Virus record (IMG/VR): IMGVR_UViG_3300045988_074307
Source: a virus
Direction: 5' to 3' (one strand)
Length of the DNA: 12,547 bases
Shown here: positions 1 through 12,547 of the stretch, piece after piece
Layout: every line of letters begins with the position of its first letter
How positions within the stretch are numbered: the first letter of the stretch is position 1
Made by a program: the position numbers and the translations under genes
Notes under the pieces: model-generated
Database searches by the model: none
The model's input: the letters and a program-made list of their open reading frames with translations, nothing else
Told to the model about the DNA's origin: nothing

Positions 1-42
1 AAAGTAACCATACCCGAAACACTTGTTCGACCTCCCCAAACG
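1..42. repeat. Left inverted terminal repeat (42 bp, perfect); genome terminus and likely protein-primed replication origin
   Basis: nt 1-42 (AAAGTAACCATACCCGAAACACTTGTTCGACCTCCCCAAACG) are the exact reverse complement of nt 12506-12547. Degenerate similarity continues to about nt 57 (shared TAAATT). The end starts AAAGTA, as phi29-group termini do. Confidence 0.95.
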
Positions 43-62
43 TCTCGACGGTAAATTAAGGG

Positions 63-101
63 CTTGTATATACGATTATTATGTGCTATACTTGTATATA
101 C
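63..101. promoter_or_regulatory. Two direct copies of CTTGTATATAC (each with the 8-bp palindrome GTATATAC); candidate operators at the left promoter
   Basis: Copies lie at 63-73 and 91-101, 28 bp apart. One overlaps the -35 and the other the predicted transcription start. The same palindrome recurs at 3122-3129 inside the second rightward promoter. Confidence 0.45.
64..92 (+). promoter_or_regulatory. Sigma-A-type promoter of the left (replication) arm
   Basis: TTGTAT (64-69), 17-nt spacer, TATACT (87-92), with TG at 84-85 giving an extended -10 (TGcTATACT). It lies just inside the ITR and upstream of the first RBS-supported gene. Confidence 0.6.
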
Positions 102-139
102 CGATACAACTAAATTATTTCATGCAGAGAGGAGGAGTA

Positions 140-304
140 ATGAAAAAAACTAGAGTAATAAACATAAGGCTGACAGAAGAACAGCGGATGGAGATTGATT
201 CTCTCGCCGAACTTATGCAGACTACCCGAACCGAAGTATTATTAAAGGCGATAGCCTATTTAAAAGACCATATGGAGGAGGTGCTTGATGATGGCAAGAG
301 GTAG
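140..304 (+). CDS. Ribbon-helix-helix (CopG/Arc-like) DNA-binding protein, 54 aa; candidate transcriptional regulator
   Basis: ATG at 140 is preceded by GGAGGAG (131-137). MKKTRVINIRLTEEQRMEIDSLAELMQTTRTEVLLKAIAYLKDH fits a beta-strand/helix/helix RHH layout. The longer ORF-track start at 23 lies inside the ITR and has no RBS. Confidence 0.7.
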   Translation: MKKTRVINIRLTEEQRMEIDSLAELMQTTRTEVLLKAIAYLKDHMEEVLDDGKR

Positions 305-956
305 GAAGAAATACATAACCCCAGCCATAACACAGCTGAAAACAGTAAAGAAACCCGAGTACAGAACGATAGACGTATACGCAGGAGGATACACTTTAGG
401 AGAATTACAGGATATACGACGGGTATTAGCAAAGCAGGCAAATCAGCGGATATTGCGCCTAGAGAGAGCAAAAAGCCGCGTAACTGGTGAGAGTTACAAC
501 ACATTCGGTGCTGTTATTGATGTTTACGATTACTTAGGAAATAAAGGACGTAGACGATTTTCGGAATCAAAGACAGCTATAAAGCAGAGTAATGAACTTA
601 GGCGCGAGATAACAGTATTACAGGGATTTCTCGGAAGGAAGTCGTCAACGGTTAAAGGCATACGAGAAATAGAAAATAAGCGACTGCGGGTATTTTCGAA
701 TAAAGGGATAAAATTTGCGAATACTAGAGAATTTTATGAGTTTTTAAACTCGCAGACATTTTTAGGCTTAGTAGCAAGTGGCTACACATCTGAACAGATT
801 GTAGAAACATATGACATGGCGCGTGAAAAAGAAGACGATTATAAGGCTGTTGAGAAAATGACAAAGGCTCTTGAAGAGTTTAGAAAAGGCGAGAAAAAAG
901 TGACCATTAAAAACCTAGAGCAGACACTGGGGGTTAAGTTATTAAGTAGGCGATGA
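288..956 (+). CDS. Candidate terminal (DNA-priming) protein, about 222 aa
   Basis: It sits immediately upstream of the protein-primed polymerase, with its stop at 954-956 and the polymerase ATG at 958, the gene order seen in phi29, Cp-1 and PRD1. It has a very basic N-terminus (MMARGRKKY; phi29 TP starts MARSPR as I recall). RBS GGAGGAGG is at 274-281. I recognise no conserved motif, so the call is positional. Confidence 0.55.
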   Translation: MMARGRKKYITPAITQLKTVKKPEYRTIDVYAGGYTLGELQDIRRVLAKQANQRILRLERAKSRVTGESYNTFGAVIDVYDYLGNKGRRRFSESKTAIKQSNELRREITVLQGFLGRKSSTVKGIREIENKRLRVFSNKGIKFANTREFYEFLNSQTFLGLVASGYTSEQIVETYDMAREKEDDYKAVEKMTKALEEFRKGEKKVTIKNLEQTLGVKLLSRR

Positions 957-957
957 A

Positions 958-3117
958 ATGAGGAAAGCAAGAATAGTTAAACGCGACCTGACATATGATT
1001 ATATTGATACATTTAATATTGATGATTTCCCGTTTACACTTTTAAATAAAAAGTGTCTTAGATGCCGTGGTCAACATCCCAAAGAATATATTTACGATTA
1101 CGCAACATTCGACATTGAGACTACGACTATTGTAAATACAGGGAAACCGTTTGGTTATATGTATCACTGGCAAATGGACGTTGCGGGCTATGTAATAACT
1201 GGCAGACGTTGGAATGAATGGGTATATTTTATGGAGAAGTTAGCAGAAATATACAGAATAAATGACAACAGGCGATTAGTGATATACGTACACAATCTAG
1301 GATATGAATTTCAGTACATTCGTGATTATTTAGAAGAAAATTTCGGCGGTTATAATGTGTTTGCGACAAAAAACAGAGCGCCTATACGAGTAAATACGCA
1401 TAACGGTTTTGAGTTTCGTTGTTCTTACAAACTTACAAATATGTCATTAAACAAAGCAACGTTAAATGAACTAGGAGTAATCCATATTAAAGCGGTAGGA
1501 GACCTTGACTATAAAATTATTAGAACTGCGGAAACACCTTTAAATGACACTGAATTCGGGTATTGTGTGAGCGATGTAGTTTCTTTATATGAGCTGATTG
1601 ACAGGCGATTGATAAATGAGACGGATAATTTAGAGACAATCCCTATGACATCTACAGGCTATGTACGCAGAGATTGTCGTAAGGCATGTCGAAAAGACCA
1701 TGACTATAATAGGATGTTTACGAAATTAATAATGACACCTTATGTGTACGGTCTTCTAAAAGAAGCTGGAAGAGGAGGAAACACACACGCAAATAGGTTT
1801 ATGTCCGGTCGTATATGGAGCGATGTCGATTCTTTTGATTTTGTTTCGGACTATCCCGCGCAAATGCTGTTGCGCAAATATCCGATGAGTAAATTTGTAC
1901 CATACGGGGATATCGAGAATATGGCAGAATTTGACGACTTACTGAGAGAATATGCGTGTCTATTCCGTGTTACTCTTGTAAATGTGAAGGTTAGAGACAA
2001 TATAGCAATGCCGTATATACCGATATCTAAATGCACACAGTACATAAGAAAAGCAGAAGACAGCAATATTGAGTTGCGGCTTGATAACGGTAGAGTATTA
2101 TCTGCCCCCGCGCTGTCTATGACAATAACAGATGTAGACTACACGATTTTAAAACGACAATATAATTGGGATAGTATAGCAATACAGGATATGTGTATTG
2201 CAAACTATGACTATCTACCGAGACCAATCCGCGATTGTGTTATGGAATATTTTAAAGCAAAAACAGATTTAAAATTCGCGATACAGGAGGAAAAGCGCAG
2301 AGAAACTCCCGACCGCGAGAAACTAGAAAACCTTACTTATTTGTATGCGAAGTCAAAAAACCGTCTAAATGGTATATTCGGTATGTGCTACACAGACCCA
2401 GTACACCAACAAATTACTATAAACGAATTGGGAGAATGGGAGACTAAAGAACCCGATATAAAAACGGAATTAGATAAGTTCCATAAGTCGCGCAACTCGT
2501 TTCTATACTATCCATGGGGAGTATGGGTTACTTGTTGGGCACGCTTGCATTTAGAAGATTTGATTGACATCACGGGACAGGACAGGACTATATATTGCGA
2601 CACGGATTCTTCTAAGGCGGTCGGAGTGGATATTTCTAGTGTTGATAAATTTAACGAAAAAATAATTGCCCTCGCAGAAGAGAGGGGTGCTTATTACGAC
2701 TGTAATGGAACACGATTCTATATGGGCATAGCTGAACACGAGAACGATGAACCAATAGCGAGATTTAAAACTCTTGGGGCTAAGAAATATGTGTATCACG
2801 ACAAAGACGGGTTTCATATCACTATAGCCGGTGTTAGTAAAGCAAAAAGCTATGACACAGGAGAATATATTGCTGTAGAGGAAATGCGATGTATTAAGAA
2901 TTTTGCACCAGGATTTACATTTTCACGTGCGGGAGGTAACGAATTGGTTTATAACGATAACGTAGGCATACATAACATAACGATAGACGGTTGCACGATG
3001 GAAACGGCTAGTAATATTGCAATGTTAGATTCCACTTATACCGTGGGTATAACAGCGGAGTATGCAACTCTGATTGACTGCAATATTTATTGTGATATTG
3101 ACAAAGATATCGCTTGA
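958..3117 (+). CDS. Protein-primed family-B DNA polymerase (phi29 gp2-like), 719 aa
   Basis: Colinear motifs: Exo I FDIETT (aa 51-56), Exo II HNLGYEFQYI, Exo III YCVSDVVSLYEL, motif A DFVSDYPAQM, motif B KSKNRLNGIFGM, motif C IYCDTDS (nt 2590-2610) and the KxY-type LGAKKYVY. Confidence 0.97.
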   Translation: MRKARIVKRDLTYDYIDTFNIDDFPFTLLNKKCLRCRGQHPKEYIYDYATFDIETTTIVNTGKPFGYMYHWQMDVAGYVITGRRWNEWVYFMEKLAEIYRINDNRRLVIYVHNLGYEFQYIRDYLEENFGGYNVFATKNRAPIRVNTHNGFEFRCSYKLTNMSLNKATLNELGVIHIKAVGDLDYKIIRTAETPLNDTEFGYCVSDVVSLYELIDRRLINETDNLETIPMTSTGYVRRDCRKACRKDHDYNRMFTKLIMTPYVYGLLKEAGRGGNTHANRFMSGRIWSDVDSFDFVSDYPAQMLLRKYPMSKFVPYGDIENMAEFDDLLREYACLFRVTLVNVKVRDNIAMPYIPISKCTQYIRKAEDSNIELRLDNGRVLSAPALSMTITDVDYTILKRQYNWDSIAIQDMCIANYDYLPRPIRDCVMEYFKAKTDLKFAIQEEKRRETPDREKLENLTYLYAKSKNRLNGIFGMCYTDPVHQQITINELGEWETKEPDIKTELDKFHKSRNSFLYYPWGVWVTCWARLHLEDLIDITGQDRTIYCDTDSSKAVGVDISSVDKFNEKIIALAEERGAYYDCNGTRFYMGIAEHENDEPIARFKTLGAKKYVYHDKDGFHITIAGVSKAKSYDTGEYIAVEEMRCIKNFAPGFTFSRAGGNELVYNDNVGIHNITIDGCTMETASNIAMLDSTYTVGITAEYATLIDCNIYCDIDKDIA

Positions 3118-3142
3118 CAACGTATATACATTTGTGTATACT
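3114..3142 (+). promoter_or_regulatory. Internal sigma-A-type promoter upstream of the SpoVG-like gene and the ATPase
   Basis: TTGACA (3114-3119, overlapping the polymerase stop TGA at 3115-3117), 17-nt spacer, TATACT (3137-3142). The spacer contains the palindrome GTATATAC (3122-3129). Confidence 0.6.
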
Positions 3143-3186
3143 ATAAGAGAACAATTAATATATTATTTAAAACAGGAGGTAGCATA

Positions 3187-3465
3187 ATGAATAAGTCTAA
3201 TTCAAAAAAAACACTGGAGGTGTCTAGTTTTAGAGTAACGGGAGTACGAACTTTAGATAGTGGCTCAGTTTCGTTTGATATGAAATTAAATGGAATAAAT
3301 ATATACGGTTGCTTCGTAGTAGAATCGGCGGAATATGGTGATTTCATTTCGTTTCCACAAAGAAAAGGGAAAGACGGAAAGTACTACCCGATTGTACGGG
3401 CGAAACTGGATAAGGAAGATACTGCGGCAATCTTGCAGGAAGTAGAGAGAATATTAAATGAATAA
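3187..3465 (+). CDS. Small SpoVG-like nucleic-acid-binding protein, 92 aa; possible replication accessory DNA-binding protein
   Basis: RBS GGAGG is about 8 nt upstream. LEVSSFRVTGV...SFDMKLNGINIYGCFVVESAEYGDFISFPQRKGKDGKYYPIV aligns by eye with B. subtilis SpoVG (EVTDVRLRRV...[41 protein letters not shown], as I recall it). Confidence 0.45.
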   Translation: MNKSNSKKTLEVSSFRVTGVRTLDSGSVSFDMKLNGINIYGCFVVESAEYGDFISFPQRKGKDGKYYPIVRAKLDKEDTAAILQEVERILNE

Positions 3466-3476
3466 ATATGAATAAT

Positions 3477-3505
3477 GGGAGGGGTTTCCCTCCCTTATTT
3501 GTTAT
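3477..3505 (+). terminator. Intrinsic terminator or attenuator hairpin between the SpoVG-like gene and the ATPase
   Basis: A 7-bp GC-rich stem, GGGAGGG (3477-3483) with CCCTCCC (3488-3494), closes a 4-nt loop and is followed by TTATTTGTTAT. Confidence 0.5.
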
Positions 3506-3516
3506 GGAGGTATTAC

Positions 3517-4578
3517 ATGCAAAATAAAATGTTTTTAAACATTTTCGATTATAAAGACGACCGATACCCTTTTCAAATTTTTATTGGTGGTCGAGGTTTC
3601 GGTAAAACATATAGCGGGTATACTGGTTGCTTAGGTCTACAAGAAACAGCTGTAGTTCCGAAAAAATTTTTATGGATGAGGAGAACCCAAAAGGAATTAG
3701 AACTCATGGAGGATACTGAAAAGGGAGAAGGAATTGGAGATTTAAAAACAATAAACAACGATTATGGTACTAATTACGGTTTTAAAGCAATAAACGACTC
3801 TCTCGCTGGAGTATATGCTAGAGAGGTCGGCGAAAACGGAAAGTATATATACAGCGAAACACCAGTAGGCTATGGCATAGCGTTAAGTACTGTATCCTCG
3901 ATACGAGGTATAAACTTTAGTGACTGCTCGGACTGGGTATATGATGAATTTATACCCGAAAAACACGTAAAGAAAATGAAGGGTGAGTGTGACGCGCTTC
4001 TAAATGCGTATGAGACAATAAACCGTAACAGAGAGTTTACAGGAGGGCAACCTATACACCTTTGGCTATTAGCAAACTCGAACGATATTTACAATCCAAT
4101 ATTTGTAGGACTTGGAATTGTTTCTATTGCGGAAAAAATGGTGTCCAGCAATAAAAAGCATACATACATTCCCGATAGAGGTTTAGCGATACATATTTTG
4201 CCGCCGTCGCGAGAGTTCCGCGAGAAAAAGGCAAAGACAGCCCTCTATAAACTTACGAATGGTACAGAGTTTCATGACATGGCTCTTGATAACACTTTCG
4301 CGTACAATGATTTTTCTCTGATAGCATATCGAAAAATACAGGGGTATATTCCGCTTTGTGCGCTTGATAATGCGTATATATATAAGAAAAAAGGCGATTC
4401 TGAGTTATACGTTTCTTATTCGCCTGCTAAAGTGCCTATATTTAGCAGTAAGATTGCACAGGACGTTATTCGTTTTAGAAGAGAATACGGTGTTACTATA
4501 CAACCGTATTTTGTAAAAGGGCACTTGATATTTGAATCTTATGAACTTAAAGAAAAGATTTTACAAATGATATTATAA
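3517..4578 (+). CDS. DNA packaging (encapsidation) ATPase, phi29 gp16-like, 353 aa
   Basis: Walker A GGRGFGKT (aa 24-31 from ATG 3517) and Walker B-like DWVYDEF. I moved the start to ATG 3517 (GGAGG at 3506-3510) because the ORF-track start at 3475 would translate through the hairpin. Confidence 0.88.
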   Translation: MQNKMFLNIFDYKDDRYPFQIFIGGRGFGKTYSGYTGCLGLQETAVVPKKFLWMRRTQKELELMEDTEKGEGIGDLKTINNDYGTNYGFKAINDSLAGVYAREVGENGKYIYSETPVGYGIALSTVSSIRGINFSDCSDWVYDEFIPEKHVKKMKGECDALLNAYETINRNREFTGGQPIHLWLLANSNDIYNPIFVGLGIVSIAEKMVSSNKKHTYIPDRGLAIHILPPSREFREKKAKTALYKLTNGTEFHDMALDNTFAYNDFSLIAYRKIQGYIPLCALDNAYIYKKKGDSELYVSYSPAKVPIFSSKIAQDVIRFRREYGVTIQPYFVKGHLIFESYELKEKILQMIL

Positions 4579-4588
4579 GTGTTATAAT
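4560..4588 (+). promoter_or_regulatory. Near-consensus extended -10 promoter aimed into the central non-coding locus
   Basis: TTTACA (4560-4565), 17-nt spacer, TGtTATAAT (4580-4588). The -35 and spacer lie in the last ATPase codons and the -10 follows the TAA stop (4576-4578). Confidence 0.6.
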
Positions 4589-4593
4589 AGAAG

Positions 4594-4699
4594 CTGGCAG
4601 GAGCGCTAGGACTAGCTGACGGAATCAGCGGCGCATGGTCTTGTCCGCCATAAGCCTGCTAGAAGCCCAGTAGATAATCTACTGGGCTTCTTTGATTTT
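4594..4699 (+). ncRNA. Candidate structured ncRNA of about 105 nt, possibly a pRNA-like packaging RNA
   Basis: This GC-rich non-coding gap between convergent stop codons has a dedicated promoter (4560-4588) and terminator (4661-4699). Helix candidates: 4594-4601/4655-4662, 4603-4606/4631-4634, 4615-4619/4625-4629 and 4635-4638/4648-4651. No RBS-supported ORF is present. Confidence 0.45.
4661..4699. terminator. Intrinsic terminator at the convergence point of the two arms
   Basis: A perfect 13-bp stem, AGAAGCCCAGTAG (4661-4673) with CTACTGGGCTTCT (4679-4691), closes a 5-nt loop ATAAT. It is followed on the + strand by TTGATTTT. There is no comparable U-tract for leftward transcripts, so it looks stronger for rightward transcription. 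Confidence 0.8.
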
Positions 4700-5735: not shown

Positions 5736-5748
5736 ATCGTTCCTCCTA

Positions 5749-6766: not shown

Positions 6767-6775
6767 TTATACCTC

Positions 6776-7480
6776 CTAATAAATCTGTACAATAAACTCG
6801 TGTTCAAACATTTCGGCAATCATCGCATAAAGGTCATATTTTACTCGCATGTCTTCCTCTGCCGAAATCATTTCTTGGTTGGTTGTAACACCAATGTTAC
6901 CATGCGCTCGTAAGACCTCTGTCTCGTCTCGTACAGCACCATAATTTACTGTAGAATTGTCATCGGCGCTAGTATTTGTAGAATTTACGTATTTGTCCGC
7001 GCCGCTGTTGCTAGTAGTGTCATTACGGCTATTGCCTGTTTTATTACGGTTTGTGTATTCATTTGTGTTGTATGCACTTACAGCTTCGGTGCTTTCCCCA
7101 GCGCTTATGGTTGTTGTCTGCGTACCTAGTGTTGTTGTGTCTTCACGTTTATTTTCATCGGTATATTTGCGCTCCGTTACGTCTCTACCCGAATTAGTGT
7201 AATTCCTAGACGATGTTTCGTAGCGGTCATAGTTCTCTATCGGGTTGTATGTTGCAGTAAGAGCTTTAAACATCTGTTCGAAATCATAACGTCGCCGTAA
7301 AAACCAGTAAGATATGTTAATTTTTAACATCGGCGGTGTCTGATAATAGGGGAATAAATCTCCCGACCGAGATATTATCTCGTTTATAAGAATATCCCTA
7401 TTTAACCCATCGGGCAGTACAACACCATCAAAAAGCGTTTTATCATATAGTAGCATTCCATATAGCGTTATCCTAGGCAT
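6776..7480 (-). CDS. Lower collar (phi29 gp11-like) candidate, 234 aa
   Basis: It lies immediately downstream of the portal gene. ATG 7480 overlaps the portal stop by 8 nt, with GGAGG at 7493-7497. The central Ser/Thr/Asn-rich segment has no hydrophobic core and could form extended tube hairpins. The call is positional; I rejected the GTG start at 7522, which has no RBS. Confidence 0.5.
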   Translation of the reverse strand: MPRITLYGMLLYDKTLFDGVVLPDGLNRDILINEIISRSGDLFPYYQTPPMLKINISYWFLRRRYDFEQMFKALTATYNPIENYDRYETSSRNYTNSGRDVTERKYTDENKREDTTTLGTQTTTISAGESTEAVSAYNTNEYTNRNKTGNSRNDTTSNSGADKYVNSTNTSADDNSTVNYGAVRDETEVLRAHGNIGVTTNQEMISAEEDMRVKYDLYAMIAEMFEHEFIVQIY

Positions 7481-8375
7481 TATCTTCACCGTCCTCCGTA
7501 TATTTGTATGCACACTCAACACGCAAACCTAACTCGCCTGAGGATAACCTATTCAAATTTTCAAACGATTCAGAGATATTTGCATAGATTACCGAGATAA
7601 TAGAGCGTGTCTCGTCGTTGTTTTCACTAACCTCCTGCGAATTTAGACGTTCTTTTTTATCATAATTAGCGTTGCGGATTCCTATTTTTGTTAGAAACTC
7701 GTTTGTTACGGTTCTCTTTGCCTGTAATAACACGTCTACGATAAAGTTACTTTTTACCGATGGAAAAAAAGGTTTTAAACCGCTATCGCCGACAACATGC
7801 TTATTTACAGTTACAAGCGGATTTCCCTGTGTCGCCGTTGCGTAAGCTTCTTTAATAGTGTCAGCATCTTTTTTGCTCTCGGCTTCGAACAAAAATGCAA
7901 CATTTGTATTCATTAAAGCAATATCAATTGCCTTGTCAATATTAGATAATTTAGTTGCAAATCTAGTTACAAGGTCATCCAATCCGTAGTAGTCATCCAG
8001 TAGTTTAACAATCTCCGCGTTTACACCAATACGACCGATTTTGTCTCCACTAAGAAAAGGCGACGTGACAATAATATCCTTCGGTTGATAGTACAAATTT
8101 AATTTTTGGATTCCGTAAGGATATGCAATCCACCCCATCTCGCGCGTATACAATACTGCTATCGACCCGTAATGAAATAGCCAGTATCGAAACCAATTAA
8201 GTTCCCAATTCTTCGGTAGAGTAAATTTAAAAACGGAGTAAATCTGCGTCCATAAATACCGTTTATTATAGTCCGTCTCAGCATTCCAAACACCCTTAAC
8301 TTGCGACGGCTGTTGATTAAAAAAATCCATAAACGACTGTGCGCTATAATCTAATGGAGCATTAAAATTATACAT
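7473..8375 (-). CDS. Portal / upper collar connector (phi29 gp10-like), 300 aa
   Basis: FLTKIGIRNANYDKKERLNSQEVSENNDETRS closely matches the phi29 gp10 segment [32 protein letters not shown] as I recall it. Size is similar (phi29 gp10 is about 309 aa) and the C-terminus is acidic. Confidence 0.88.
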   Translation of the reverse strand: MYNFNAPLDYSAQSFMDFFNQQPSQVKGVWNAETDYNKRYLWTQIYSVFKFTLPKNWELNWFRYWLFHYGSIAVLYTREMGWIAYPYGIQKLNLYYQPKDIIVTSPFLSGDKIGRIGVNAEIVKLLDDYYGLDDLVTRFATKLSNIDKAIDIALMNTNVAFLFEAESKKDADTIKEAYATATQGNPLVTVNKHVVGDSGLKPFFPSVKSNFIVDVLLQAKRTVTNEFLTKIGIRNANYDKKERLNSQEVSENNDETRSIISVIYANISESFENLNRLSSGELGLRVECAYKYTEDGEDNA

Positions 8376-8384
8376 ACATTCCTC

Positions 8385-9749
8385 CTATTCCATATAAAAT
8401 CCGCTGTTTAATAGCATATTTAGAGTATCGCGCTCGCTCGCTAACCCATCTATCGAAATGCTAGCCCCGCCGCATTTTACAAATCCGCTTAAAGTTCCTA
8501 ACTGTACATTTTGCATAAGCGGTCTACCTGCAACAGCAGTAGGATATTCGGCAGAACCATATACAGTTCTACTTATTGTAAACCACGGACGATTGCGTAA
8601 ACCTTGTATTGCCCCTGTAGAACCTAGAGTTTTTACGACTGGTGTTATTGCGTTTTTAATTGCATTTACTCCACTTGCAATGCCACCCATTACGTTACCA
8701 GTTGCAACAGACCCTCCTAACGACACAGCAGATTGTATTATACCGCCAATGTTAGAAACGGTCTGCCCAATCTGCACGTCGTATCCAACCATTCCGACAG
8801 CTGTTGTAAGATTGCAACCTTTATCGAGTTCTCCAGAAGCGCCTGTGTTTACAAATGTTACAAACTGTCCTGTCGAGTAGTCGATACTGCATGAAATATC
8901 AAGACCGCCATCGAAATACATGTGTTCGGGTGGTATTGCAACAATACCGTAAGATGGTATGTATAAAGAGAATGTCGTAAAATTGGGGTTACAATCGCGC
9001 CAATCGTTGTAATAACGTTCCATAGGCGCTACCTTTAAAATAATTGTTCCTCCGTACTTTGTAAGCATGTAACCTTTAATTCCCGTATTCCACCAGCCTA
9101 CCCATATATCGGTCTCTATGCCGTTAAGAGAATCGGCGCTGAACGGAAACCATTTGATTGAAATAATGTAGTCAATCGGATTAAATATAGCCTTTACGAA
9201 AGTTTCCGCTAAAACGTCCGAGAAATTTGAACTATCGTATAGATAAGACAATAGATGTCCTAATGTACTCGCAGATATTGCAAACATTTCTACACCTGTT
9301 GGAGCTAGAATAGAAGCTGTACTAGCCAATCTTATTATATAACATCCGTCTGTATCAAATCCAGCGATTTCGTTTCGAGCGTCTACTTTTACAAGTTTCT
9401 GCTTTGCACTCAATAATTCATCGTTAATATCAGAGTCATAAAAGGACGCGCTACGTTCTACAAAACACGTATAGCCCTCTATAGTACCTCGATACGTAGA
9501 GAGTACATCGACGGCTAGTTTGCAACTCCATAGACCTTCATTGTAATTCCAATCGTCGATAAAATAGTATCGTGTAAATTCGGGAATGTAGCAATAAGAG
9601 TAAGAGGGATTCCCCTCTACTCTAAGCTCTATAACTGGAGCTAAGATAGAGGTCGAATCCTTTAGCAATATGTCGATAGGTGTTCCATCTGTATTCGGAA
9701 GTTCCGTAGAATTTTTCCGCTTTGCAAAATTATAAAAAATTGCGTTCAT
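8385..9749 (-). CDS. Tail knob / distal tube protein (phi29 gp9-like), 454 aa
   Basis: N-terminal WSCKLAVDVLSTY resembles gp9 VHFEIDVLQTW. A long Gly/Ala/Val-rich segment (aa 316-383) resembles the gp9 hydrophobic loop. C-terminal FVKCGGASISIDGLASERDTLNMLLNSGFY resembles gp9 [32 protein letters not shown] (recalled). Confidence 0.75.
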   Translation of the reverse strand: MNAIFYNFAKRKNSTELPNTDGTPIDILLKDSTSILAPVIELRVEGNPSYSYCYIPEFTRYYFIDDWNYNEGLWSCKLAVDVLSTYRGTIEGYTCFVERSASFYDSDINDELLSAKQKLVKVDARNEIAGFDTDGCYIIRLASTASILAPTGVEMFAISASTLGHLLSYLYDSSNFSDVLAETFVKAIFNPIDYIISIKWFPFSADSLNGIETDIWVGWWNTGIKGYMLTKYGGTIILKVAPMERYYNDWRDCNPNFTTFSLYIPSYGIVAIPPEHMYFDGGLDISCSIDYSTGQFVTFVNTGASGELDKGCNLTTAVGMVGYDVQIGQTVSNIGGIIQSAVSLGGSVATGNVMGGIASGVNAIKNAITPVVKTLGSTGAIQGLRNRPWFTISRTVYGSAEYPTAVAGRPLMQNVQLGTLSGFVKCGGASISIDGLASERDTLNMLLNSGFYME

Positions 9750-9750
9750 A

Positions 9751-10590
9751 TTAGACCCTCCGCAGTTTACCCACCTTTGCCATGTTTAAAAGATACATAT
9801 TCTGTTCATACGTACCTGCATAATCGCTTATTCCATTCGCATTTGCGAGAGGTGTTCGTAATTTCCAATTACCAAATGGCGCTCCGATTTCTTCTAAAAT
9901 CTCATCTAATCCCTCTGCTTCACCTTCATATCGCGGGTAGTATTCATCGTCTGTCGAATACACCCTCATCAGTGTTCCGTCCTTTGCCTTGTTAATAAGA
10001 TACATATTCTGTTCATACGTACCCGCATAATCGCTTATTCCATTCGCGTTCGCGAGAGGTGTACGTAATTTCCAATTGCCAAAAGGCGCACCGATTTCTT
10101 CTAAAATCTCGTCTAACCCCTGCGATTCACCTTCATATCGCGGGTAGTATTCATCGTCTGTCAAAATTGGTTCGTTAAATAACGCTAACTCTGCGTTTCG
10201 GCGATTCACAAGACCGTTTAAAACTGCGCCACCTGCTTTATTATATTTTGGTAAATCTGCGCTAATCTGCTCGCGGGTTGCCTGTCCGTTTTTTAATAAC
10301 GTGCATAAATTAGCCGCACCGCAGTTGTAGCAGAAGCTCACGAGTGCGTCAAACTCATTTTGATTAAAATTATAATCATCGTCGTACTTATTTACACTAG
10401 GCTCATAGTTTCCTGCTAAATCGTCTTTTAAAAGCTCGTCAGCCTGTTCTTGTGTAATAGTATCCCATGCTTCTACATTTCCGTGATGACCATAACCTAT
10501 CGCATAACCGTTCACGTCCCAAAATGCTGTAAGACTACAACCCTCAAACGTTTTAATAAGCTCTAAACCTCTGTCAGATATATGTTTCAT
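9751..10590 (-). CDS. Endolysin: N-terminal GH24 (T4/lambda-type) lysozyme plus two tandem 69-aa C-terminal repeats (putative cell-wall-binding module), 279 aa
   Basis: LIKTFEGCSLTAFWDVNGYAIGYGH carries the E-x8-D lysozyme signature, followed by NEFDALVSFCYNCG. The C-terminal repeats are TDDEYYPRYEGE..GLDEILEEIGAPFGNWKLRTPLANANGISDYAGTYEQNMYL. The gene is adjacent to the holin. Confidence 0.88.
   Translation of the reverse strand: MKHISDRGLELIKTFEGCSLTAFWDVNGYAIGYGHHGNVEAWDTITQEQADELLKDDLAGNYEPSVNKYDDDYNFNQNEFDALVSFCYNCGAANLCTLLKNGQATREQISADLPKYNKAGGAVLNGLVNRRNAELALFNEPILTDDEYYPRYEGESQGLDEILEEIGAPFGNWKLRTPLANANGISDYAGTYEQNMYLINKAKDGTLMRVYSTDDEYYPRYEGEAEGLDEILEEIGAPFGNWKLRTPLANANGISDYAGTYEQNMYLLNMAKVGKLRRV
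9754..10161. repeat. Tandem duplication, 2 x 207 bp at about 90 percent identity, inside the endolysin gene
   Basis: Copy 9754-9954 matches copy 9955-10161; for example GATACATATTCTGTTCATACGTACC at 9792 recurs at 9999, an offset of 207 nt. Confidence 0.9.
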
Positions 10591-10601
10591 ATAAATACCT
10601 C

Positions 10602-10787
10602 CTACTGTGTCAACTTGTCTTTTAACTCTGTGATAACAATTTTTAAGTCTGCTAATGCTTCGGTTACTTTGCTCATTTCTTCCTTATGTGCGTCCGTCTG
10701 ATTCTTGTTTACGTAAGCCATATAAATACACGCAACAATAGGAAAGCCTACAGAACTAACCGCCGTTAATACTCCGTTTACGTCCAT
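10602..10787 (-). CDS. Holin candidate (BhlA/UviB-like architecture), 61 aa
   Basis: It has a single N-terminal transmembrane segment (GVLTAVSSVGFPIVACIYMAYV) and a charged helical C-terminus. RBS AGGAGG. It lies directly upstream of the endolysin. Confidence 0.65.
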   Translation of the reverse strand: MDVNGVLTAVSSVGFPIVACIYMAYVNKNQTDAHKEEMSKVTEALADLKIVITELKDKLTQ

Positions 10788-10798
10788 ATATTTACCTC

Positions 10799-12004
10799 CT
10801 ACTTCTGTTTACCGCCGTCGCCCAGTACAAATACTACAGCGTTCTCTGTGTAGTCGCTGTAAACGTTAAATCGCCAGTGCATATACATATTCCAGTAACC
10901 GCCTGCACTATTAAATGGTGTAGAGCTGGCATAATCAAACTGCGGCAGAACACCGAGTGCTTCCTCGTCAAAAAGAATGCCTAAACAATAAGGAATAGTT
11001 GTTTCTACACCGTCCTTGCTTGCACCAGTAGCGGTGTCGAGGATATTCGGCTTTACCTTAATCTGCGTTGGTTCTGCCTGTGACTGCCAGTAATTCACAC
11101 CCTCAAAGTCTCCTATTTCTAAGTACTGCGGGTTAAAAAGACTAGAATAAACCTCGGATTCCGCCTCGATGTAAACTGGGTCATACATAATCATTTTCTG
11201 CCGCTCTTTTGGTGTATGCCGCATAATCTTAGGATGGCTGTCGAGGTTTGCGTGATAATTGGTCGACATATCTGTAAGTCGTTTAGAATATATCTTAATT
11301 GTCGCCGCGGTAAACTTCATAAAAGATGTGAGCTGGCTCGATAACAGCTCTCCTCTTGTATATGTCGTGCCGTATTTTGTATTATATTCGGCAACTAAAT
11401 CTACAACACCAGTACCCATATTTACCATACCAGCAATATGCGAAATAAGCGCCAACCTAGATTTTGTTTCATTAAGTAATTCAACTTCGTTAAAAAACTC
11501 AATCATTACAGAATCAATAAATGCCAAAAACTCACGCTCGTCCGAAAAAGCTAGCGCGAGCTGGTCGCGAAAACGCGTAATATGCTTCTGCAAGAGTTTT
11601 GTGCCGTAAAAATTAAGCTGTAACACTTTAGGCTTACGAATTTTGTACATATCGACAGCTTCTCCGTCGTCTAACTGTGCAGGATTACTGTCTGTATTCC
11701 AGTCTTCTGTCTTCTCTGCTTCTTCATACAAGGTAATAATCTTACGTACCTGTCCACCCCAGCGTTCCGGAGATACAAGCAATGTAGACAATTTTGACTG
11801 GTACGGTCGGACAGAGAAAATAGTGCGCGCTAATACAGTAGACACGGAATTAAGTATATTTTCTGTGCCTGTGCGAAGAACAATTTCTCCGACCGATTGA
11901 AAAGATGTAGAATCTACTGCTTTTAAATCAGAGCGCCCTGTTGCCTGTGATACCATTTCGTTAAACAACGCGTATACGTCTACAGGTGTTAGTGTGTTTG
12001 CCAT
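10799..12004 (-). CDS. Major capsid protein (phi29 gp8-like), 401 aa
   Basis: C-terminal GGYWNMYMHWRFNVYSDYTENAVVFVLGD resembles phi29 gp8 [29 protein letters not shown] as I recall it. It is translationally coupled to the upstream gene through TAATG at 12002-12006. Confidence 0.85.
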   Translation of the reverse strand: MANTLTPVDVYALFNEMVSQATGRSDLKAVDSTSFQSVGEIVLRTGTENILNSVSTVLARTIFSVRPYQSKLSTLLVSPERWGGQVRKIITLYEEAEKTEDWNTDSNPAQLDDGEAVDMYKIRKPKVLQLNFYGTKLLQKHITRFRDQLALAFSDEREFLAFIDSVMIEFFNEVELLNETKSRLALISHIAGMVNMGTGVVDLVAEYNTKYGTTYTRGELLSSQLTSFMKFTAATIKIYSKRLTDMSTNYHANLDSHPKIMRHTPKERQKMIMYDPVYIEAESEVYSSLFNPQYLEIGDFEGVNYWQSQAEPTQIKVKPNILDTATGASKDGVETTIPYCLGILFDEEALGVLPQFDYASSTPFNSAGGYWNMYMHWRFNVYSDYTENAVVFVLGDGGKQK

Positions 12005-12417
12005 TATTTACTACCCCCTTTTAAATTTTCTCCTACCAGCATAGAAGTAAAGTGCTCTGCTAACTTATCGTCTATCGAAACTGTCGGCGGAATGTCGATT
12101 GTTGCATTCGCAGTATTTACACTCTGCAATAACTGTGCAAACTGGCTCTCTGTCAATCCTGTTTGCGGTGCTACCTGCGCTACCTGCGGTGCTACCTGCG
12201 GTGATACCTGCGGCGCTACCTGCGCTACCTGCGGTGCTACCTGCGGTGCTACCTGCGCTACCTGCGGTGCTACCTGCGGTGCTACCTGCGGTGCTACCTG
12301 CGGTGCTACCTGCGGTGCTACCTGCGCTACCTGCGGTGTTGCCTGCTGTGCTAAAGTCATAATCTGCTCTCTGCTAAAACCAGCATGAGCAAGTGCTACA
12401 ACATCATTTAATGTCAT
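12004..12417 (-). CDS. Scaffolding protein candidate with a central (A/S)PQV / AQV tandem repeat, 137 aa
   Basis: First gene of the late operon, directly upstream of the capsid gene and coupled to it, like phi29 gp7. ATG 12417 has GGGAGG upstream. The ends are helical and acidic and flank a repeat linker. The ORF-track start at 12525 lies in the ITR and was rejected. Confidence 0.45.
   Translation of the reverse strand: MTLNDVVALAHAGFSREQIMTLAQQATPQVAQVAPQVAPQVAPQVAPQVAPQVAQVAPQVAPQVAQVAPQVSPQVAPQVAQVAPQTGLTESQFAQLLQSVNTANATIDIPPTVSIDDKLAEHFTSMLVGENLKGGSK
12163..12342. repeat. In-frame microsatellite-like tandem repeat: 12-nt GCTACCTGCGGT units mixed with 9-nt GCTACCTGC units, about 16 units
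   Basis: Read directly. It encodes ATPQV AQV (APQV)x5 AQV (APQV)x2 AQV APQV SPQV APQV AQV APQ on the - strand. Confidence 0.95.
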
Positions 12418-12456
12418 AGATTTGTACCTCCCTTTTAAAATTAATTGTTCGCCCAT

Positions 12457-12485
12457 ATAGTACAACATTTTGTATGTATTGTCAA
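12457..12485 (-). promoter_or_regulatory. Sigma-A-type promoter of the right (structural/lysis) arm
   Basis: On the - strand: TTGACA (12485-12480), 17-nt spacer, TACTAT (12462-12457). Its -35 is 63 nt from the right end, mirroring the left promoter, whose -35 is 64 nt from the left end. Confidence 0.6.
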
Positions 12486-12490
12486 TACAT
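12474..12490. promoter_or_regulatory. Perfect 8+1+8 inverted repeat over the late-promoter -35; candidate operator
   Basis: ATGTATTG-T-CAATACAT (12474-12490) is centred on the -35 hexamer. It contains GTAT/ATAC half-sites like the GTATATAC palindromes of the rightward promoters. Confidence 0.45.
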
Positions 12491-12505
12491 AATTTAACGT
12501 TATGC

Positions 12506-12547
12506 CGTTTGGGGAGGTCGAACAAGTGTTTCGGGTATGGTTACTTT
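12506..12547. repeat. Right inverted terminal repeat (42 bp, perfect)
   Basis: Exact reverse complement of nt 1-42. Confidence 0.95.

What the first reader, a model, noticed from the sequence alone, without database searches (positions are those of the whole stretch)
1..12547. The window is a complete, very small phi29-like genome with a reduced gene set
ITR-to-ITR the sequence is 12,547 bp. phi29 is about 19.3 kb, and the smallest tailed-phage genomes I know of are about 11-12 kb (for example Mycoplasma phage P1). It encodes about 16 RBS-supported proteins. Recognisable phi29 equivalents are gp2, gp8, gp9, gp10 and gp16, with candidate equivalents of gp3, gp7 and gp11, plus a lysis pair. I see no counterpart of the head fibre (gp8.5), the gp12 tailspike fold, the gp13 tail lysin or the gp5/gp6 replication accessories. 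This may approximate a minimal protein-primed podovirus and could represent an undescribed lineage.
Basis: partly seen in the sequence, partly recalled or inferred. Interest (0 to 1): 0.75.

Follow-up and report, generated by a model that had tools for sequence, protein, structure and literature searches.

The report
Small phi29-like gut phage genome

Summary
Observation confirmed. The window is a complete linear genome bounded by 58-nt inverted terminal repeats (exact for 42 nt, starting AAAGTA as in phi29). It has 16 RBS-supported genes and is 95% coding. Independent public assemblies end at or within 6 nt of the same termini.

Interpretation partly supported. All six phi29-group hallmark genes (gp2, 8, 9, 10, 11, 16) are present, and gp8.5, gp12 and gp13 have no homologues. 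It is neither minimal nor an undescribed kind. Cultured relatives are smaller (Amedibacillus AD70P2 at 12.3 kb, Salmonella astrithr at 11.6 kb). IMG/VR holds at least 556 related loci, with ITR-bounded genomes of 12.9-14.4 kb, and a 2024 review catalogues over 2,000 phi29-related sequences. The same species is already in ENA assemblies (97.8% nt identity) and in GenBank as an unclassified TPA MAG (PolB 99% identical). No named phage shares nucleotide similarity, so it is an unclassified genus-level lineage within a known clade.

Corrections: a SpoVG-fold nucleic-acid-binding protein sits in the replication module, and three tail proteins (two sharing an N-terminal module, one an SGNH esterase) probably stand in for gp12.

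New: positions 4595-4661 encode a promoter-driven RNA of about 67 nt (about 105 nt with its terminator). It belongs to a strongly covarying family found beside the ATPase gene across the clade, with phi29 pRNA topology including the bulge-to-loop pairing. It is not in Rfam.

The parts
1..58 (.). Left inverted terminal repeat (exact match 1-42), starting AAAGTA; predicted origin of protein-primed replication
   Evidence: the same terminal base in L003 and L005
140..304 (+). g01, 54 aa, ribbon-helix-helix type transcription regulator (candidate early/late switch)
   Evidence: phrog_876 transcriptional repressor E 1.2e-5; weak Pfam NikA-like match
291..956 (+). g02, 221 aa, terminal-protein candidate (assigned by position, not by homology to phi29 gp3)
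   Evidence: Sits immediately upstream of PolB. Family HMM hits the equivalent ORF upstream of PolB in HM2, AD70P2 and astrithr. All-alpha model, pLDDT 80. Invariant Ser119 and Ser167. No PDB or phi29 gp3 match.
958..3117 (+). g03, 719 aa, protein-primed family B DNA polymerase (gp2 equivalent)
   Evidence: PF03175 E 2.8e-11; phrog_1907 E 5e-51; family HMM vs phi29 gp2 E 7e-27
3114..3142 (+). Promoter-like site TTGACA-17-TATACT upstream of g04
   Evidence: consensus match only
3187..3465 (+). g04, 92 aa, SpoVG-fold nucleic-acid-binding protein; possible functional stand-in for gp5/gp6
   Evidence: Family profile vs PDB 2i9x E 7.8e-4; 13 of 19 family members match PF04026; HMM hits the annotated SpoVG of phiCP7R at E 2e-7
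3477..3494 (+). GC-rich hairpin followed by a T-run between g04 and the ATPase gene (terminator-like)
3517..4578 (+). g05, 353 aa, gp16-type DNA packaging ATPase
   Evidence: PF05894 E 2.7e-18; phrog_2150 E 1.4e-34; HMM vs gp16 E 8e-35
4560..4588 (+). Promoter TTTACA-17-(TG)TATAAT for the small RNA, overlapping the ATPase stop codon
   Evidence: a -10 box matching at least 5 of 6 positions lies upstream of the RNA in 60 of 63 distinct relatives
4595..4661 (+). Core of a pRNA-like structured RNA: closing helix, three-way junction, arm with a 5' bulge (AGGACUA) and CGGAA loop, hairpin with loop CUUGUCC; bulge GGAC pairs with loop GUCC
   Evidence: Fold z -4.46. A covariance model built without the window places its best hit here, E 0.023; model R2 gives 20.1 bits, E 2.6e-4. 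Family covariation.
4661..4691 (.). Perfect 15-bp inverted repeat with T-runs: bidirectional terminator for the RNA, the ATPase strand and the convergent late operon
   Evidence: (I18)
4698..5735 (-). g06, 345 aa, SGNH/GDSL esterase tail protein (probable receptor-modifying appendage)
   Evidence: PF13472 E 1.8e-13; phrog_5240 tail fibre; HMM hits Av-1 ORF13 in its tail module, E 1.9e-6
5749..6264 (-). g07, 171 aa, Ala-rich coiled-coil fibre protein
   Evidence: N-terminal 45 aa are 44% identical to g08; 21-nt x3 repeat at 6119-6184; no database match
6273..6470 (-). g08, 65 aa, short paralogue of the g07 N-terminal module
6473..6766 (-). g09, 97 aa, unknown small tail-module protein
   Evidence: Assigned by position only; no significant match
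6776..7480 (-). g10, 234 aa, lower collar / tail tube (gp11 equivalent)
   Evidence: Family HMM vs phi29 gp11 E 2.7e-9; phrog_3225 adaptor Ad4 E 7e-4
7473..8375 (-). g11, 300 aa, portal / upper collar connector (gp10 equivalent)
   Evidence: PF05352 E 3e-14; phrog_2038; HMM vs gp10 E 3e-38
8385..9749 (-). g12, 454 aa, tail knob (gp9 equivalent) with a Gly/Ala-rich low-confidence loop at residues 329-376
   Evidence: AF2 pLDDT 79.8; Foldseek to phi29 gp9 5fb5 E 1.6e-12, TM 0.57, and to phage C1 gp12 4eo2 E 1e-10; HMM vs gp9 E 2e-5
9751..10590 (-). g13, 279 aa, GH24 lysozyme endolysin (gp15 equivalent) with two ~69-aa C-terminal repeats
   Evidence: PF00959 E 1.4e-31; HMM vs gp15 E 1e-38 and no match to gp13; 207-nt x1.9 repeat at 9774-10162
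10602..10787 (-). g14, 61 aa, holin
   Evidence: phrog_4898 E 3e-11; HMM hits the annotated holin of phiCP7R at E 1e-7
10799..12004 (-). g15, 401 aa, major capsid protein (gp8 equivalent)
   Evidence: PF25622 Phi29_MCP E 2.9e-14; HMM vs gp8 E 1.3e-10
12004..12417 (-). g16, 137 aa, scaffold candidate containing an (A)PQV repeat (12-nt unit x16.8 at 12164-12353) whose length varies between strains
   Evidence: Assigned only by its position upstream of the MCP gene; no homology; repeat; lengths of 130, 137, 144 and 164 aa in other assemblies
12457..12485 (-). Promoter-like site TTGACA-17-TACTAT for the late operon
12490..12547 (.). Right inverted terminal repeat

Best explanation
The window is the complete linear genome of a lytic, protein-primed phi29-type podovirus of an unidentified, probably Gram-positive (Bacillota) host. 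It belongs to an abundant clade of 12-14 kb phages from gut and other metagenomes that already has cultured members.

Shown:
- ITRs and true termini.
- A rightward operon of regulator, TP candidate, PolB, SpoVG-like protein and gp16 ATPase.
- A convergent leftward late operon: scaffold candidate, MCP, holin, endolysin, tail knob, portal, lower collar, then four small or fibre proteins ending in an SGNH esterase.
- Between the two operons, a promoter-driven structured RNA that belongs to a covarying family.

Inferred:
- Replication starts at both ends by PolB priming on g02, using the AAA terminal reiteration for sliding back as in phi29.
- The ATPase packages unit-length TP-capped DNA through the portal.
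- The small RNA plays the part of phi29 pRNA. Its closing helix would present the ATPase, and its bulge and hairpin loop would pair between neighbouring RNAs to form a ring on the portal. I put this last step at about 0.55.
For: - Termini.
- Hallmark genes.
- Clade membership and commonness: PolB, MCP and knob relatives at 25-48% identity in 12-14 kb genomes; at least 556 IMG/VR loci and 25 ITR-bounded genomes of 12.9-14.4 kb; proteome clustering with L023, L026 and AD70P2.
- Gram-positive signals: AGGAGG RBS at all 16 genes, sigma-A-type promoters, a GH24 endolysin with wall-binding repeats, and a cultured relative on Amedibacillus.
- RNA structure: 94.7% of cells paired on 52 distinct sequences against 27-43% in slid controls. 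The four nested helices are 98-100% paired with 4-6 pair types per position. The bulge-loop helix, which the model cannot represent, is 78% paired with 4-5 pair types at three positions.
- RNA in the window: a model built without the window finds the window's copy.
- RNA transcription: its own -10 box in 60 of 63 relatives.
- RNA topology: the same element order as Rfam's phi29 pRNA consensus.
- RNA strand: about 31 G-U cells occur on the ATPase-sense strand, which fits an RNA rather than a DNA element.
Against: - The TP and scaffold assignments have no homology support to phi29 gp3 or gp7.
- The host is unknown.
- Rfam's pRNA model does not match the window even at E<=10, and my model does not match phi29.
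- The closing helix is 5-12 bp, against about 26 bp for the phi29 A-helix.
- In most relatives the RNA runs straight into the RBS of the next late gene, as a 5' leader would.
- In L021 and L022 the RNA is not next to the ATPase gene.
- No hit in the cultured AD70P2, astrithr, phiCP7R, P68, Cp-1 or Av-1.
- The bulge-loop pairing could be an intramolecular pseudoknot.
Confidence: 0.85

Rival explanations
1. One reading: this is a near-minimal protein-primed podovirus representing a previously undescribed lineage.
For: No nucleotide-level match to any of 50,697 deposited phage records. The best protein identities to any of them are MCP 48% (an unannotated faecal contig) and PolB 39% (Clostridium phage HM2). 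Proteome similarity to the named families is 0.000-0.011, and at most 0.146 to anything in IMG/VR. By usual practice that makes it an unclassified genus-level lineage.
Against: Smaller complete relatives are cultured, and 15-16 genes is typical of them. The clade has hundreds of members in IMG/VR and is covered by a published survey of over 2,000 phi29-related sequences (PMC11476376). The same species is already in GenBank as a TPA MAG and in ENA.
Confidence: 0.1
2. The conserved RNA is not a packaging RNA. It is a cis-acting 5' leader (riboswitch, attenuator or stability element) of the late operon, or a trans-acting regulatory sRNA, and its bulge-loop pairing is an intramolecular pseudoknot.
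For: In most relatives the element lies between a strong promoter and the RBS of the next late gene (a holin-like ORF) with no terminator in between. Pseudoknotted three-way junctions are common in riboswitches. There is no sequence homology to RF00044.
Against: In the window, L003, L005 and L021-L026 the element keeps its promoter but is followed at once by a strong terminator with no downstream gene on that strand, so it cannot regulate anything in cis there. It stays linked to the ATPase gene through genome rearrangements. Its element order and its bulge-to-second-hairpin pairing match pRNA exactly.
Confidence: 0.3
3. The sequence is a linear plasmid or phage-plasmid, or a fragment of a larger replicon, rather than a free lytic phage genome.
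For: Some phi29-related sequences are phage-plasmids (PMC11476376). The window encodes an RHH protein. One knob homologue (P0116) lies on a 49,959-bp contig.
Against: There are no ParA, toxin-antitoxin or integrase genes among the 16 ORFs. A full virion and lysis module is present. The ends are reproduced in independent assemblies. No relative of the MCP was found in bacterial or archaeal genome assemblies.
Confidence: 0.03

Closest known systems
Amedibacillus phages AD70P2 / AD70P3 (OP172638, OP172639; filed under Guelinviridae in GenBank)
   Same: Cultured and ITR-bounded (55 nt), 12.3 and 12.2 kb, with 15 genes. They share PolB (38% identity), ATPase (33%), MCP (34%), knob (28%), portal (28%), lower collar (31%), holin (40%) and the g02 family upstream of PolB, with the same order in the late module. 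A 123-nt gap with a TTGACA-17-TATATT promoter follows the ATPase gene, and its MFE fold has the same three-way layout.
   Different: All but one gene lie on one strand. There is no SGNH, SpoVG or GH24 homologue. G+C is 27% against 40.5%. Proteome similarity is only 0.067. The RNA model gives no significant hit.
Unclassified human-metagenome relatives: GenBank TPA MAG carrying DAV44387.1, ENA contig L106, and IMG/VR L023 and L026
   Same: DAV44387.1 PolB is 714/719 identical. L106 is 97.8% identical over the full length with the same 16 genes. L023 and L026 are the nearest IMG/VR genomes (S_G 0.146 and 0.112), with the RNA followed by a terminator as in the window.
   Different: These are unannotated or unclassified records with no description, host or taxonomy. 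The scaffold-repeat and fibre lengths differ between strains.
Bacillus phage phi29 (Salasmaviridae)
   Same: AAAGTA termini, protein-primed PolB, gp16 ATPase, the gp8/9/10/11 virion core, a GH24 endolysin, a bidirectional terminator between convergent operons, and a pRNA whose topology matches the new RNA.
   Different: Phi29 has 19.3 kb and 27 genes, a 6-nt ITR, and gp8.5, gp12, gp13, gp4, gp5, gp6 and gp17, none of which has a homologue here. Its ATPase is the last gene of the late operon. Its pRNA is 174 nt (a 120-nt functional domain) and is encoded at the left end. Proteome similarity is 0.011.
Clostridium phage phiCP7R (Guelinviridae, Brucesealvirus)
   Same: The same convergent layout, with a protein upstream of PolB, then PolB and the ATPase on one strand and the late operon on the other. 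It has an annotated SpoVG homologue and a related holin.
   Different: 18.4 kb and 26 genes, a gp12-like appendage, an M23/lysozyme tail peptidase and an amidase endolysin. Proteome similarity is 0.007. No RNA hit.
Astrithrvirus group (Salmonella phages astrithr/Astrid, Pectobacterium DU_PP_III, Acinetobacter Phanie)
   Same: 11.2-11.9 kb, about 15 genes, ITRs, a related PolB (33%), MCP (22%), holin and g02 family.
   Different: Gram-negative hosts. The knob is split over two genes and the lower collar is shortened (PMC11476376). Portal and lower collar are not detectable by BLAST. No RNA hit.
phi29 prohead RNA (Rfam RF00044)
   Same: The element order is the same: closing helix, three-way junction, first arm with a 5'-only bulge and apical hairpin, then a second hairpin. 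The bulge pairs with the second hairpin's loop and the two co-vary. It has its own promoter and is encoded by a phage with a gp16 ATPase and gp10 portal (PMC5066667).
   Different: The core is about 65 nt against 120 nt, and the closing helix is much shorter. The apical loop is a conserved C-GGAA-G. The gene lies beside the ATPase gene instead of at the genome end. There is no covariance-model similarity in either direction. Function is untested.

Membership tests
phi29-related protein-primed podoviruses (hallmark set of Evseev et al. 2024, PMC11476376) | Protein-primed family B DNA polymerase (p2) | tested here: met
   PF03175; HMM vs gp2 E 7e-27
phi29-related protein-primed podoviruses (hallmark set of Evseev et al. 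2024, PMC11476376) | gp16-type packaging ATPase | tested here: met
   PF05894; HMM vs gp16 E 8e-35
phi29-related protein-primed podoviruses (hallmark set of Evseev et al. 2024, PMC11476376) | phi29-type major capsid protein (p8) | tested here: met
   PF25622; HMM vs gp8 E 1.3e-10
phi29-related protein-primed podoviruses (hallmark set of Evseev et al. 2024, PMC11476376) | Tail knob (p9) | tested here: met
   Foldseek to 5fb5 E 1.6e-12, TM 0.57; HMM E 2e-5
phi29-related protein-primed podoviruses (hallmark set of Evseev et al. 2024, PMC11476376) | Upper collar / portal (p10) and lower collar (p11) | tested here: met
   PF05352; HMM vs gp10 E 3e-38 and vs gp11 E 2.7e-9
phi29-related protein-primed podoviruses (hallmark set of Evseev et al. 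2024, PMC11476376) | Linear genome with inverted terminal repeats | tested here: met
phi29-related protein-primed podoviruses (hallmark set of Evseev et al. 2024, PMC11476376) | Terminal protein covalently linked to the 5' ends | tested here: inconclusive
   The g02 family is conserved immediately upstream of PolB in four lineages, but there is no similarity to phi29 gp3 or to any solved structure. The covalent linkage itself cannot be tested here.
Salasmaviridae | Proteome-level clustering with phi29-type members | tested here: not met
   S_G 0.011 to phi29 and 0.004 to Cp-1; the window falls in a different cluster. This is a home-made ViPTree-like score, not an ICTV analysis.
Guelinviridae | Proteome-level clustering with Clostridium-phage type members | tested here: inconclusive
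   S_G is 0.007 to phiCP7R, which does not cluster with the window. However, the window does cluster with AD70P2, which GenBank files under Guelinviridae. Layout and SpoVG are shared with phiCP7R.
Rountreeviridae | Proteome-level clustering with P68/44AHJD-type members | tested here: not met
   S_G 0.000 to P68
phi29 prohead RNA (pRNA, RF00044) | Match to the curated covariance model | tested here: not met
   No RF00044 match in the window at E<=10. The positive control on phi29 scored 145 bits.
phi29 prohead RNA (pRNA, RF00044) | Secondary-structure topology: A-helix, 3WJ, C helix, CE 5' bulge, E hairpin, then D hairpin | tested here: met
   The window's fold and the family consensus, with 98-100% pairing in all four helices, have the same element order as the Rfam consensus
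phi29 prohead RNA (pRNA, RF00044) | Watson-Crick complementarity between the CE bulge and the D loop, maintained by covariation | tested here: met
   78% of cells paired, and three of five positions show 4-5 pair types, in a helix the model could not fit. In the window the pairing is GGAC/GUCC.
phi29 prohead RNA (pRNA, RF00044) | The pairing is intermolecular; the RNA forms a ring on the portal and is required for packaging | not testable with these tools
   Needs biochemistry or cryo-EM

The most novel reading that the evidence does not exclude
The roughly 67-nt RNA at 4595-4661 and its 70 or so relatives found here are miniature prohead (packaging) RNAs. If so, an RNA component of the DNA-packaging motor is not a peculiarity of phi29-type Bacillus phages. 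It would be widespread, and possibly ancestral, in the protein-primed podoviruses, in a form about half the size of phi29's 120-nt functional domain, encoded beside the ATPase gene it serves.
Probability: 0.55. Interest if true: 0.8.

Novelty: new member of a known kind. Interest (0 to 1): 0.5.

Why it matters
The genome itself adds little. It is one more member of a populous, already catalogued group of 11-14 kb phi29-related phages, and the same species is already deposited as an unclassified MAG.

The RNA is the part that could matter. Reviews describe pRNA as unique to phi29 and related Bacillus phages (PMC11476376). A 2025 covariance-model search added only Bacillus- and Cytobacillus-type phages (PMC12670572). 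Why the phi29 motor needs an RNA at all, and whether the RNA is ancestral or a late addition, are still open questions (PMC5066667).

A second, sequence-unrelated family would bear on those questions. It would offer a natural minimal pRNA for structural work and RNA nanotechnology. It would also make the question testable in cultured relatives of this clade, if one carrying the RNA can be found or isolated.

Tried and rejected
- Megablast of the whole genome against 50,697 phage records: no match.
- Rfam at E<=10: no pRNA. The only sub-threshold hits (PrrB_RsmZ at 3373-3502, E 0.007 and 26.6 bits against a gathering score of 44; RsmY in the APQV repeat) were treated as chance. They rest on the g04 terminator hairpin and on repeat composition.
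- Profile of the knob family against PDB sequences: nothing. Structure search was needed.
- TP candidate: no hits by profile against PDB, by HMM against phi29 gp3, by Foldseek against PDB or against Cp-1 and Av-1 TPs. BFVD returned only uncharacterised proteins of similar MAGs.
- g04 against phi29 gp5: E 0.024 in a 27-protein database. This is too weak, and the SpoVG assignment replaced it.
- Host inference: the endolysin wall-binding repeats are only about 34% identical to Bacillus phage endolysins. Two scans of bacterial and archaeal genomes found no relatives.
- First MAFFT alignment of the RNAs misaligned the window and L023. I rebuilt the seed without them.
- R2 over 1.1 Mb with default filters dropped the window subgroup. 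It was recovered with filters off.
- The A8 alignment of the window subgroup was not used for pair counts because P3 is visibly misregistered.
- AD70P2 RNA: the architecture is compatible but z is only -1.5 and there is no model hit, so it is not claimed.
- Apparent extensions beyond the ends in L013 and L004 were rejected as chimeras.

Full report
1. THE OBSERVATION

The window has a terminal inverted repeat. Positions 1-58 and 12490-12547 are 91% complementary. The first 42 nt are identical at the two ends and read AAAGTAACCATACCC.... Phi29's 6-nt ITR is AAAGTA.

Sixteen ATG-initiated ORFs, each preceded by an AGGAGG-like RBS, cover 95.4% of the sequence. There are no tRNA genes.

2. ARE THE ENDS REAL?

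The window's exact MCP is encoded on at least 21 public metagenome contigs. The longest are 12.2-12.9 kb and none is longer.
- Two assemblies of a sister variant with about 87-94% nt identity (L003, L005) start at exactly the same terminal base, AAAGTGACC....
- An independent 12,530-bp contig from another sample (L106) is colinear with window 6-12541 at 97.8% identity, so it stops 5-6 nt short at each end.
- Two contigs that seemed to extend further were examined. L013 (12,867 bp) and L004 carry unrelated DNA joined inside the genome, at window positions 167 and 12524. They are chimeric assemblies and not continuations.
- Scans of 185,579 bacterial and archaeal genomes for relatives of the MCP and of the endolysin wall-binding domain found nothing, so nothing points to a prophage or plasmid state.

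I could not inspect read coverage.

3. WHAT THE GENES ARE

Rightward strand:
- g01 (140-304) is an RHH-type regulator (phrog_876).
- g02 (291-956) is the terminal-protein candidate.
- g03 (958-3117) is a protein-primed PolB (PF03175; family HMM vs gp2, E 7e-27).
- g04 (3187-3465) is a SpoVG-fold protein.
- g05 (3517-4578) is the gp16 ATPase (PF05894; E 8e-35 vs gp16).

Leftward strand, from the right end:
- g16 is the scaffold candidate.
- g15 is the MCP (PF25622; E 1.3e-10 vs gp8).
- g14 is the holin (phrog_4898).
- g13 is a GH24 endolysin. It matches gp15 at E 1e-38 and does not match gp13.
- g12 is the tail knob.
- g11 is the portal (PF05352; E 3e-38 vs gp10).
- g10 is the lower collar (E 2.7e-9 vs gp11).
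- g09, g08, g07 and g06 follow.

The 454-aa g12 had no Pfam, PHROG or PDB-sequence match. An AlphaFold model built on 26 homologues (pLDDT 79.8) matches the phi29 gp9 and phage C1 gp12 tail knobs (E 1.6e-12 and 1e-10, TM 0.57).

So all six hallmark proteins of phi29-related viruses as defined by Evseev et al. (PMC11476376) are present.

4. THE UNCERTAIN ASSIGNMENTS

g02 (TP candidate):
- It is all-alpha (pLDDT 80), has a basic N-terminus and has two invariant serines, S119 and S167.
- Its family HMM hits the ORF immediately upstream of PolB in Clostridium phage HM2 (E 8e-39), Amedibacillus AD70P2 (3e-17) and Salmonella astrithr (2e-11).
- It shows no similarity to phi29 gp3, to the Cp-1 or Av-1 TPs, or to any solved structure.
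- BFVD returns only uncharacterised proteins of similar metagenomic podoviruses and one 'Tectiviridae sp.'.
- It is therefore a TP by conserved synteny only.

g16 (scaffold candidate):
- It is assigned solely by its position before the MCP gene.
- It contains a 12-nt tandem repeat, x16.8, that encodes (A)PQV units. The protein's length differs between strains: 130, 137, 144 and 164 aa.

No window family matches gp8.5, gp12, gp13, gp5 or gp6, so those are absent as homologues. Two qualifications apply.

First, g04 is a SpoVG-fold nucleic-acid-binding protein.
- The family profile matches PDB 2i9x over its full length (E 7.8e-4).
- 13 of 19 family members match PF04026.
- The HMM hits the annotated SpoVG protein of Clostridium phage phiCP7R (E 2e-7).
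- It sits between PolB and the ATPase gene and is a plausible functional stand-in for a DNA-binding accessory. That role is an inference.

Second, g07 and g08 share a 45-residue N-terminal module at 44% identity. The N-terminus of g06 looks similar by eye.
- g06 is an SGNH/GDSL esterase (PF13472, E 1.8e-13). Its family matches a tail-module protein of Actinomyces phage Av-1.
- These three proteins occupy the gp12 position after the lower collar. They are the likely appendages, with an esterase in place of a beta-helix depolymerase.

6. IS IT UNUSUALLY SMALL OR A NEW LINEAGE?

It is not unusually small.
- tblastn of PolB, MCP and the knob against deposited phages finds cultured phages of 11.2-12.3 kb: Amedibacillus AD70P2 and AD70P3, the Salmonella Astrid/astrithr/assan group, Pectobacterium DU_PP_III, Acinetobacter Phanie, Enterobacter Entb_47 and Shigella vB_SHGBLB0004. 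It also finds a 10.4-kb Vibrio record that is not ITR-bounded, and human-faecal contigs of 12.4-15.7 kb.
- AD70P2 (12,320 bp, 55-nt ITR, 15 genes) and astrithr (11,569 bp, 18-nt ITR, 15 genes) are complete and smaller than the window.
- IMG/VR holds at least 556 loci encoding related ATPases. Among the best 80, 25 contigs are ITR-bounded and span 12.9-14.4 kb.
- The knob family alone has more than 247 clusters at 90% identity, almost all on contigs of 12-15 kb.
- A 2024 review lists 2,115 phi29-related sequences in 30 MCP clusters, many of them 12-16 kb human-metagenome genomes. It already states that phi29-related phages are the smallest known tailed viruses.

On lineage, a home-made ViPTree-like score (best six-frame ORF blastp hits, normalised) places the window with IMG/VR L023 (0.146), L026 (0.112), AD70P2 (0.067) and MT836115 (0.066). 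It is far from phi29 (0.011), phiCP7R (0.007), P68 (0.000) and Mycoplasma P1 (0.000). For scale, phi29 against Cp-1 scores 0.028. So the window is an unclassified lineage of roughly genus level, inside a clade that already has cultured members.

The species itself is not new to the archives. The window's PolB cluster includes GenBank DAV44387.1, 'MAG TPA: DNA polymerase B [Caudoviricetes sp.]', which is 714/719 identical. L106 is the same species. From my own knowledge, DA-prefixed TPA proteins of 'Caudoviricetes sp.' come from the Tisza and Buck human-metagenome catalogue. I could not verify that here.

7. THE ITEM NOT IN THE FINDING: A STRUCTURED RNA BESIDE THE ATPASE GENE

The window's element. 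Apart from the two terminal regions, the only sizeable non-coding gap is 4579-4697 (119 nt, G+C 0.50 against 0.405 for the genome). It contains:
- a near-consensus extended -10 promoter (TTTACA-17-TG-TATAAT, 4560-4588);
- about 67 nt that fold into a three-way junction;
- a perfect 15-bp terminator hairpin at 4661-4691 (fold z -4.46).

The same gap in relatives. Most relatives keep a 90-180-nt gap after the ATPase gene, with elevated G+C. Their folds share one architecture despite very different sequences:
- a closing helix P1;
- arm P2a, then a 7-nt 5' bulge, then P2b with a C-GGAA-G apical loop;
- hairpin P3 with a 5-7-nt loop.

Covariation in the seed. A nine-sequence seed alignment that excluded the window and its nearest relatives has 93.6% of cells paired, against 33-38% in slid controls. 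20 of 24 pairs show double changes.

Model searches.
- A covariance model built from that seed found the element in 59 of 90 sources, nearly always just 3' of the ATPase gene on the same strand.
- In the window, its single best full-length hit is 4595-4661 (E 0.023; the next hit is at E 1.6).
- A second-generation model gives 20.1 bits, E 2.6e-4, for the window. It also recovers L003, L005, L023-L026 and L039.

Covariation on the larger set. On 52 distinct sequences, 94.7% of cells pair, against 27-43% in slid controls. The four nested helices are 98-100% paired with 4-6 pair types per position.

The bulge-loop pairing. The bulge is complementary to the P3 loop. This fifth helix cannot be represented in the model, so the alignment could not have been fitted to it. 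It is still 78% paired, with 4-5 pair types at three positions. Examples are GGAC/GUCC in the window, AGUCA/UGACU, GGUCA/UGACC, GACCA/UGGUC and UAGCA/UGCUA.

Strand. About 31 G-U cells lie on the ATPase-sense strand. That fits an RNA rather than a DNA element.

Promoter. 60 of 63 distinct upstream regions have a -10 box matching at least 5 of 6 positions, 1-20 nt upstream, often with a perfect TTGACA.

8. WHAT THE RNA PROBABLY IS

Rfam's consensus for phi29 pRNA reads: A-helix, C helix, 9-nt 5' bulge (containing AACC), E hairpin, C helix return, D hairpin (loop UGGUU), A-helix return. That is the same element order as the new RNA, including the one-sided bulge that pairs with the second hairpin's loop. 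In phi29 this CE-D pairing is intermolecular and builds the pRNA ring on the prohead (PMC5066667).

Arguments for a miniature pRNA:
- The context fits: a gp16-type ATPase next door and a gp10-type portal in the same genome.
- In the window subgroup the promoter-RNA cassette is followed only by a terminator, with no downstream gene. That argues against a purely cis-acting leader.

Arguments against:
- There is no covariance-model similarity in either direction.
- The closing helix is much shorter than the phi29 A-helix.
- In most relatives the RNA is the 5' leader of the next late gene.
- In L021 and L022 it lies elsewhere in the genome.
- There are no significant hits in the cultured phages AD70P2, astrithr, phiCP7R, P68, Cp-1 and Av-1.
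- Whether the bulge-loop pairing is inter- or intramolecular cannot be told from sequence.

I put the packaging-RNA reading at about 0.55.

Prior literature:
- The review states that pRNA is, 'according to current knowledge', unique to phi29 and related Bacillus phages.
- A 2025 Infernal search added 12 pRNAs, all in Salasvirus or Cytobacillus-type phages (PMC12670572).
- The Av-1 GenBank record annotates a putative 'packaging RNA', so the idea has been raised for another lineage, but my model does not hit it.
- I found no report of this RNA family, and it is not in Rfam 15.

9. VERDICT

The window is a complete, typical member of a known and abundant group of small phi29-related phages. It is not a minimal or undescribed kind, and the species is already deposited as an unclassified MAG.

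The genome on its own deserves a low score. The overall score is raised to the middle of the range by the well-supported new RNA family with pRNA topology, whose function remains to be tested.

Noticed in passing
window 4560-4699 (+); also L015 5309-5371, L017 7949-8015 (-), L023 5403-5470, L048 5791-5855 and about 65 further loci: A conserved promoter-driven structured RNA lies next to the packaging ATPase gene. It forms a three-way junction with a covarying bulge-to-hairpin-loop pairing, the same topology as phi29 pRNA. It is not in Rfam.
   Followed up: yes
L021 4628-4694 (-) and L022 6084-6149 (-): In these two IMG/VR relatives, whose ATPases are the closest in IMG/VR to the window's (52-53% identity), the RNA is on the opposite strand several kb from the ATPase gene. 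It still has its own TATAAT box and a terminator. The linkage to the ATPase gene is therefore not absolute.
   Followed up: partly
L001 (Amedibacillus phage AD70P2) 6384-6506 (-): The 123-nt gap after the ATPase gene of this cultured phage has a TTGACA-17-TATATT promoter. A 60-nt stretch has an MFE fold with the same three-way layout and a UCGAA apical loop. It is AT-rich, not significant (z -1.5) and not hit by the model.
   Followed up: partly
L013 1-710 (ENA ERZ1744996 NODE_2389) and L004 1-97: Unrelated, higher-G+C DNA is joined to the phage inside the genome, at window positions 167 and 12524. In L013 it carries a 220-aa ORF that looks bacterial. I read these as chimeric assemblies. The foreign segment was not identified and could hint at a co-occurring organism.
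   Followed up: partly
window 12164-12353 (-), inside g16: A 12-nt tandem repeat (x16.8) encodes (A)PQV units. The protein is 130, 137, 144 or 164 aa in different assemblies, so the array length is polymorphic. Several assemblies break or hold N-runs here.
   Followed up: partly
window 9774-10162 (-), inside g13: The endolysin carries two tandem ~69-aa C-terminal repeats (89-91% nt identity). They are distantly similar (~34%) to wall-binding domains of Bacillus subtilis phage endolysins. Sister strains have a 285-aa version.
   Followed up: partly
window 5749-6264 and 6273-6470 (-); N-terminus of 4698-5735: g07 and g08 share a 45-residue N-terminal module (44% identity) followed by Ala-rich heptads. 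g06 has a similar start by eye. This suggests several appendage proteins docking on one site. g07 also holds a 21-nt x3 repeat at 6119-6184 and varies from 164 to 185 aa between strains.
   Followed up: partly
window 3373-3502 (+): There is a sub-threshold Rfam match to PrrB/RsmZ (26.6 bits against a gathering score of 44, E 0.007). It spans the end of g04 and the GC-rich hairpin at 3477-3494. I judged it a chance match driven by the terminator-like hairpin.
   Followed up: no
P0116 (knob homologue): One knob-family protein (31% identity) is recorded on a 49,959-bp contig, far longer than any other in the family. It could be a chimera, a phage-plasmid or a larger relative.
   Followed up: no
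L105 (Actinomyces phage Av-1) 16295-16402: The GenBank record annotates a putative 'packaging RNA' in a phi29-like phage that does not infect Bacillus. My RNA model gives no significant hit there.
   Followed up: partly
window 1-9; L096 1-9; L075 1-5; L020 1-6: The terminal sequence AAAGT(A/G) is shared by the window, its sister strains, some distant IMG/VR relatives and phi29 itself. This fits a conserved sliding-back initiation on a 3'-TTT template end.
   Followed up: partly
L101 (Clostridium phage phiCP7R) 16629-16940: An annotated SpoVG homologue exists in a Guelinviridae phage and matches the window's g04 family (E 2e-7). SpoVG-fold proteins therefore recur in phi29-related phages of Bacillota. 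Their role is not discussed in the review I read.
   Followed up: partly
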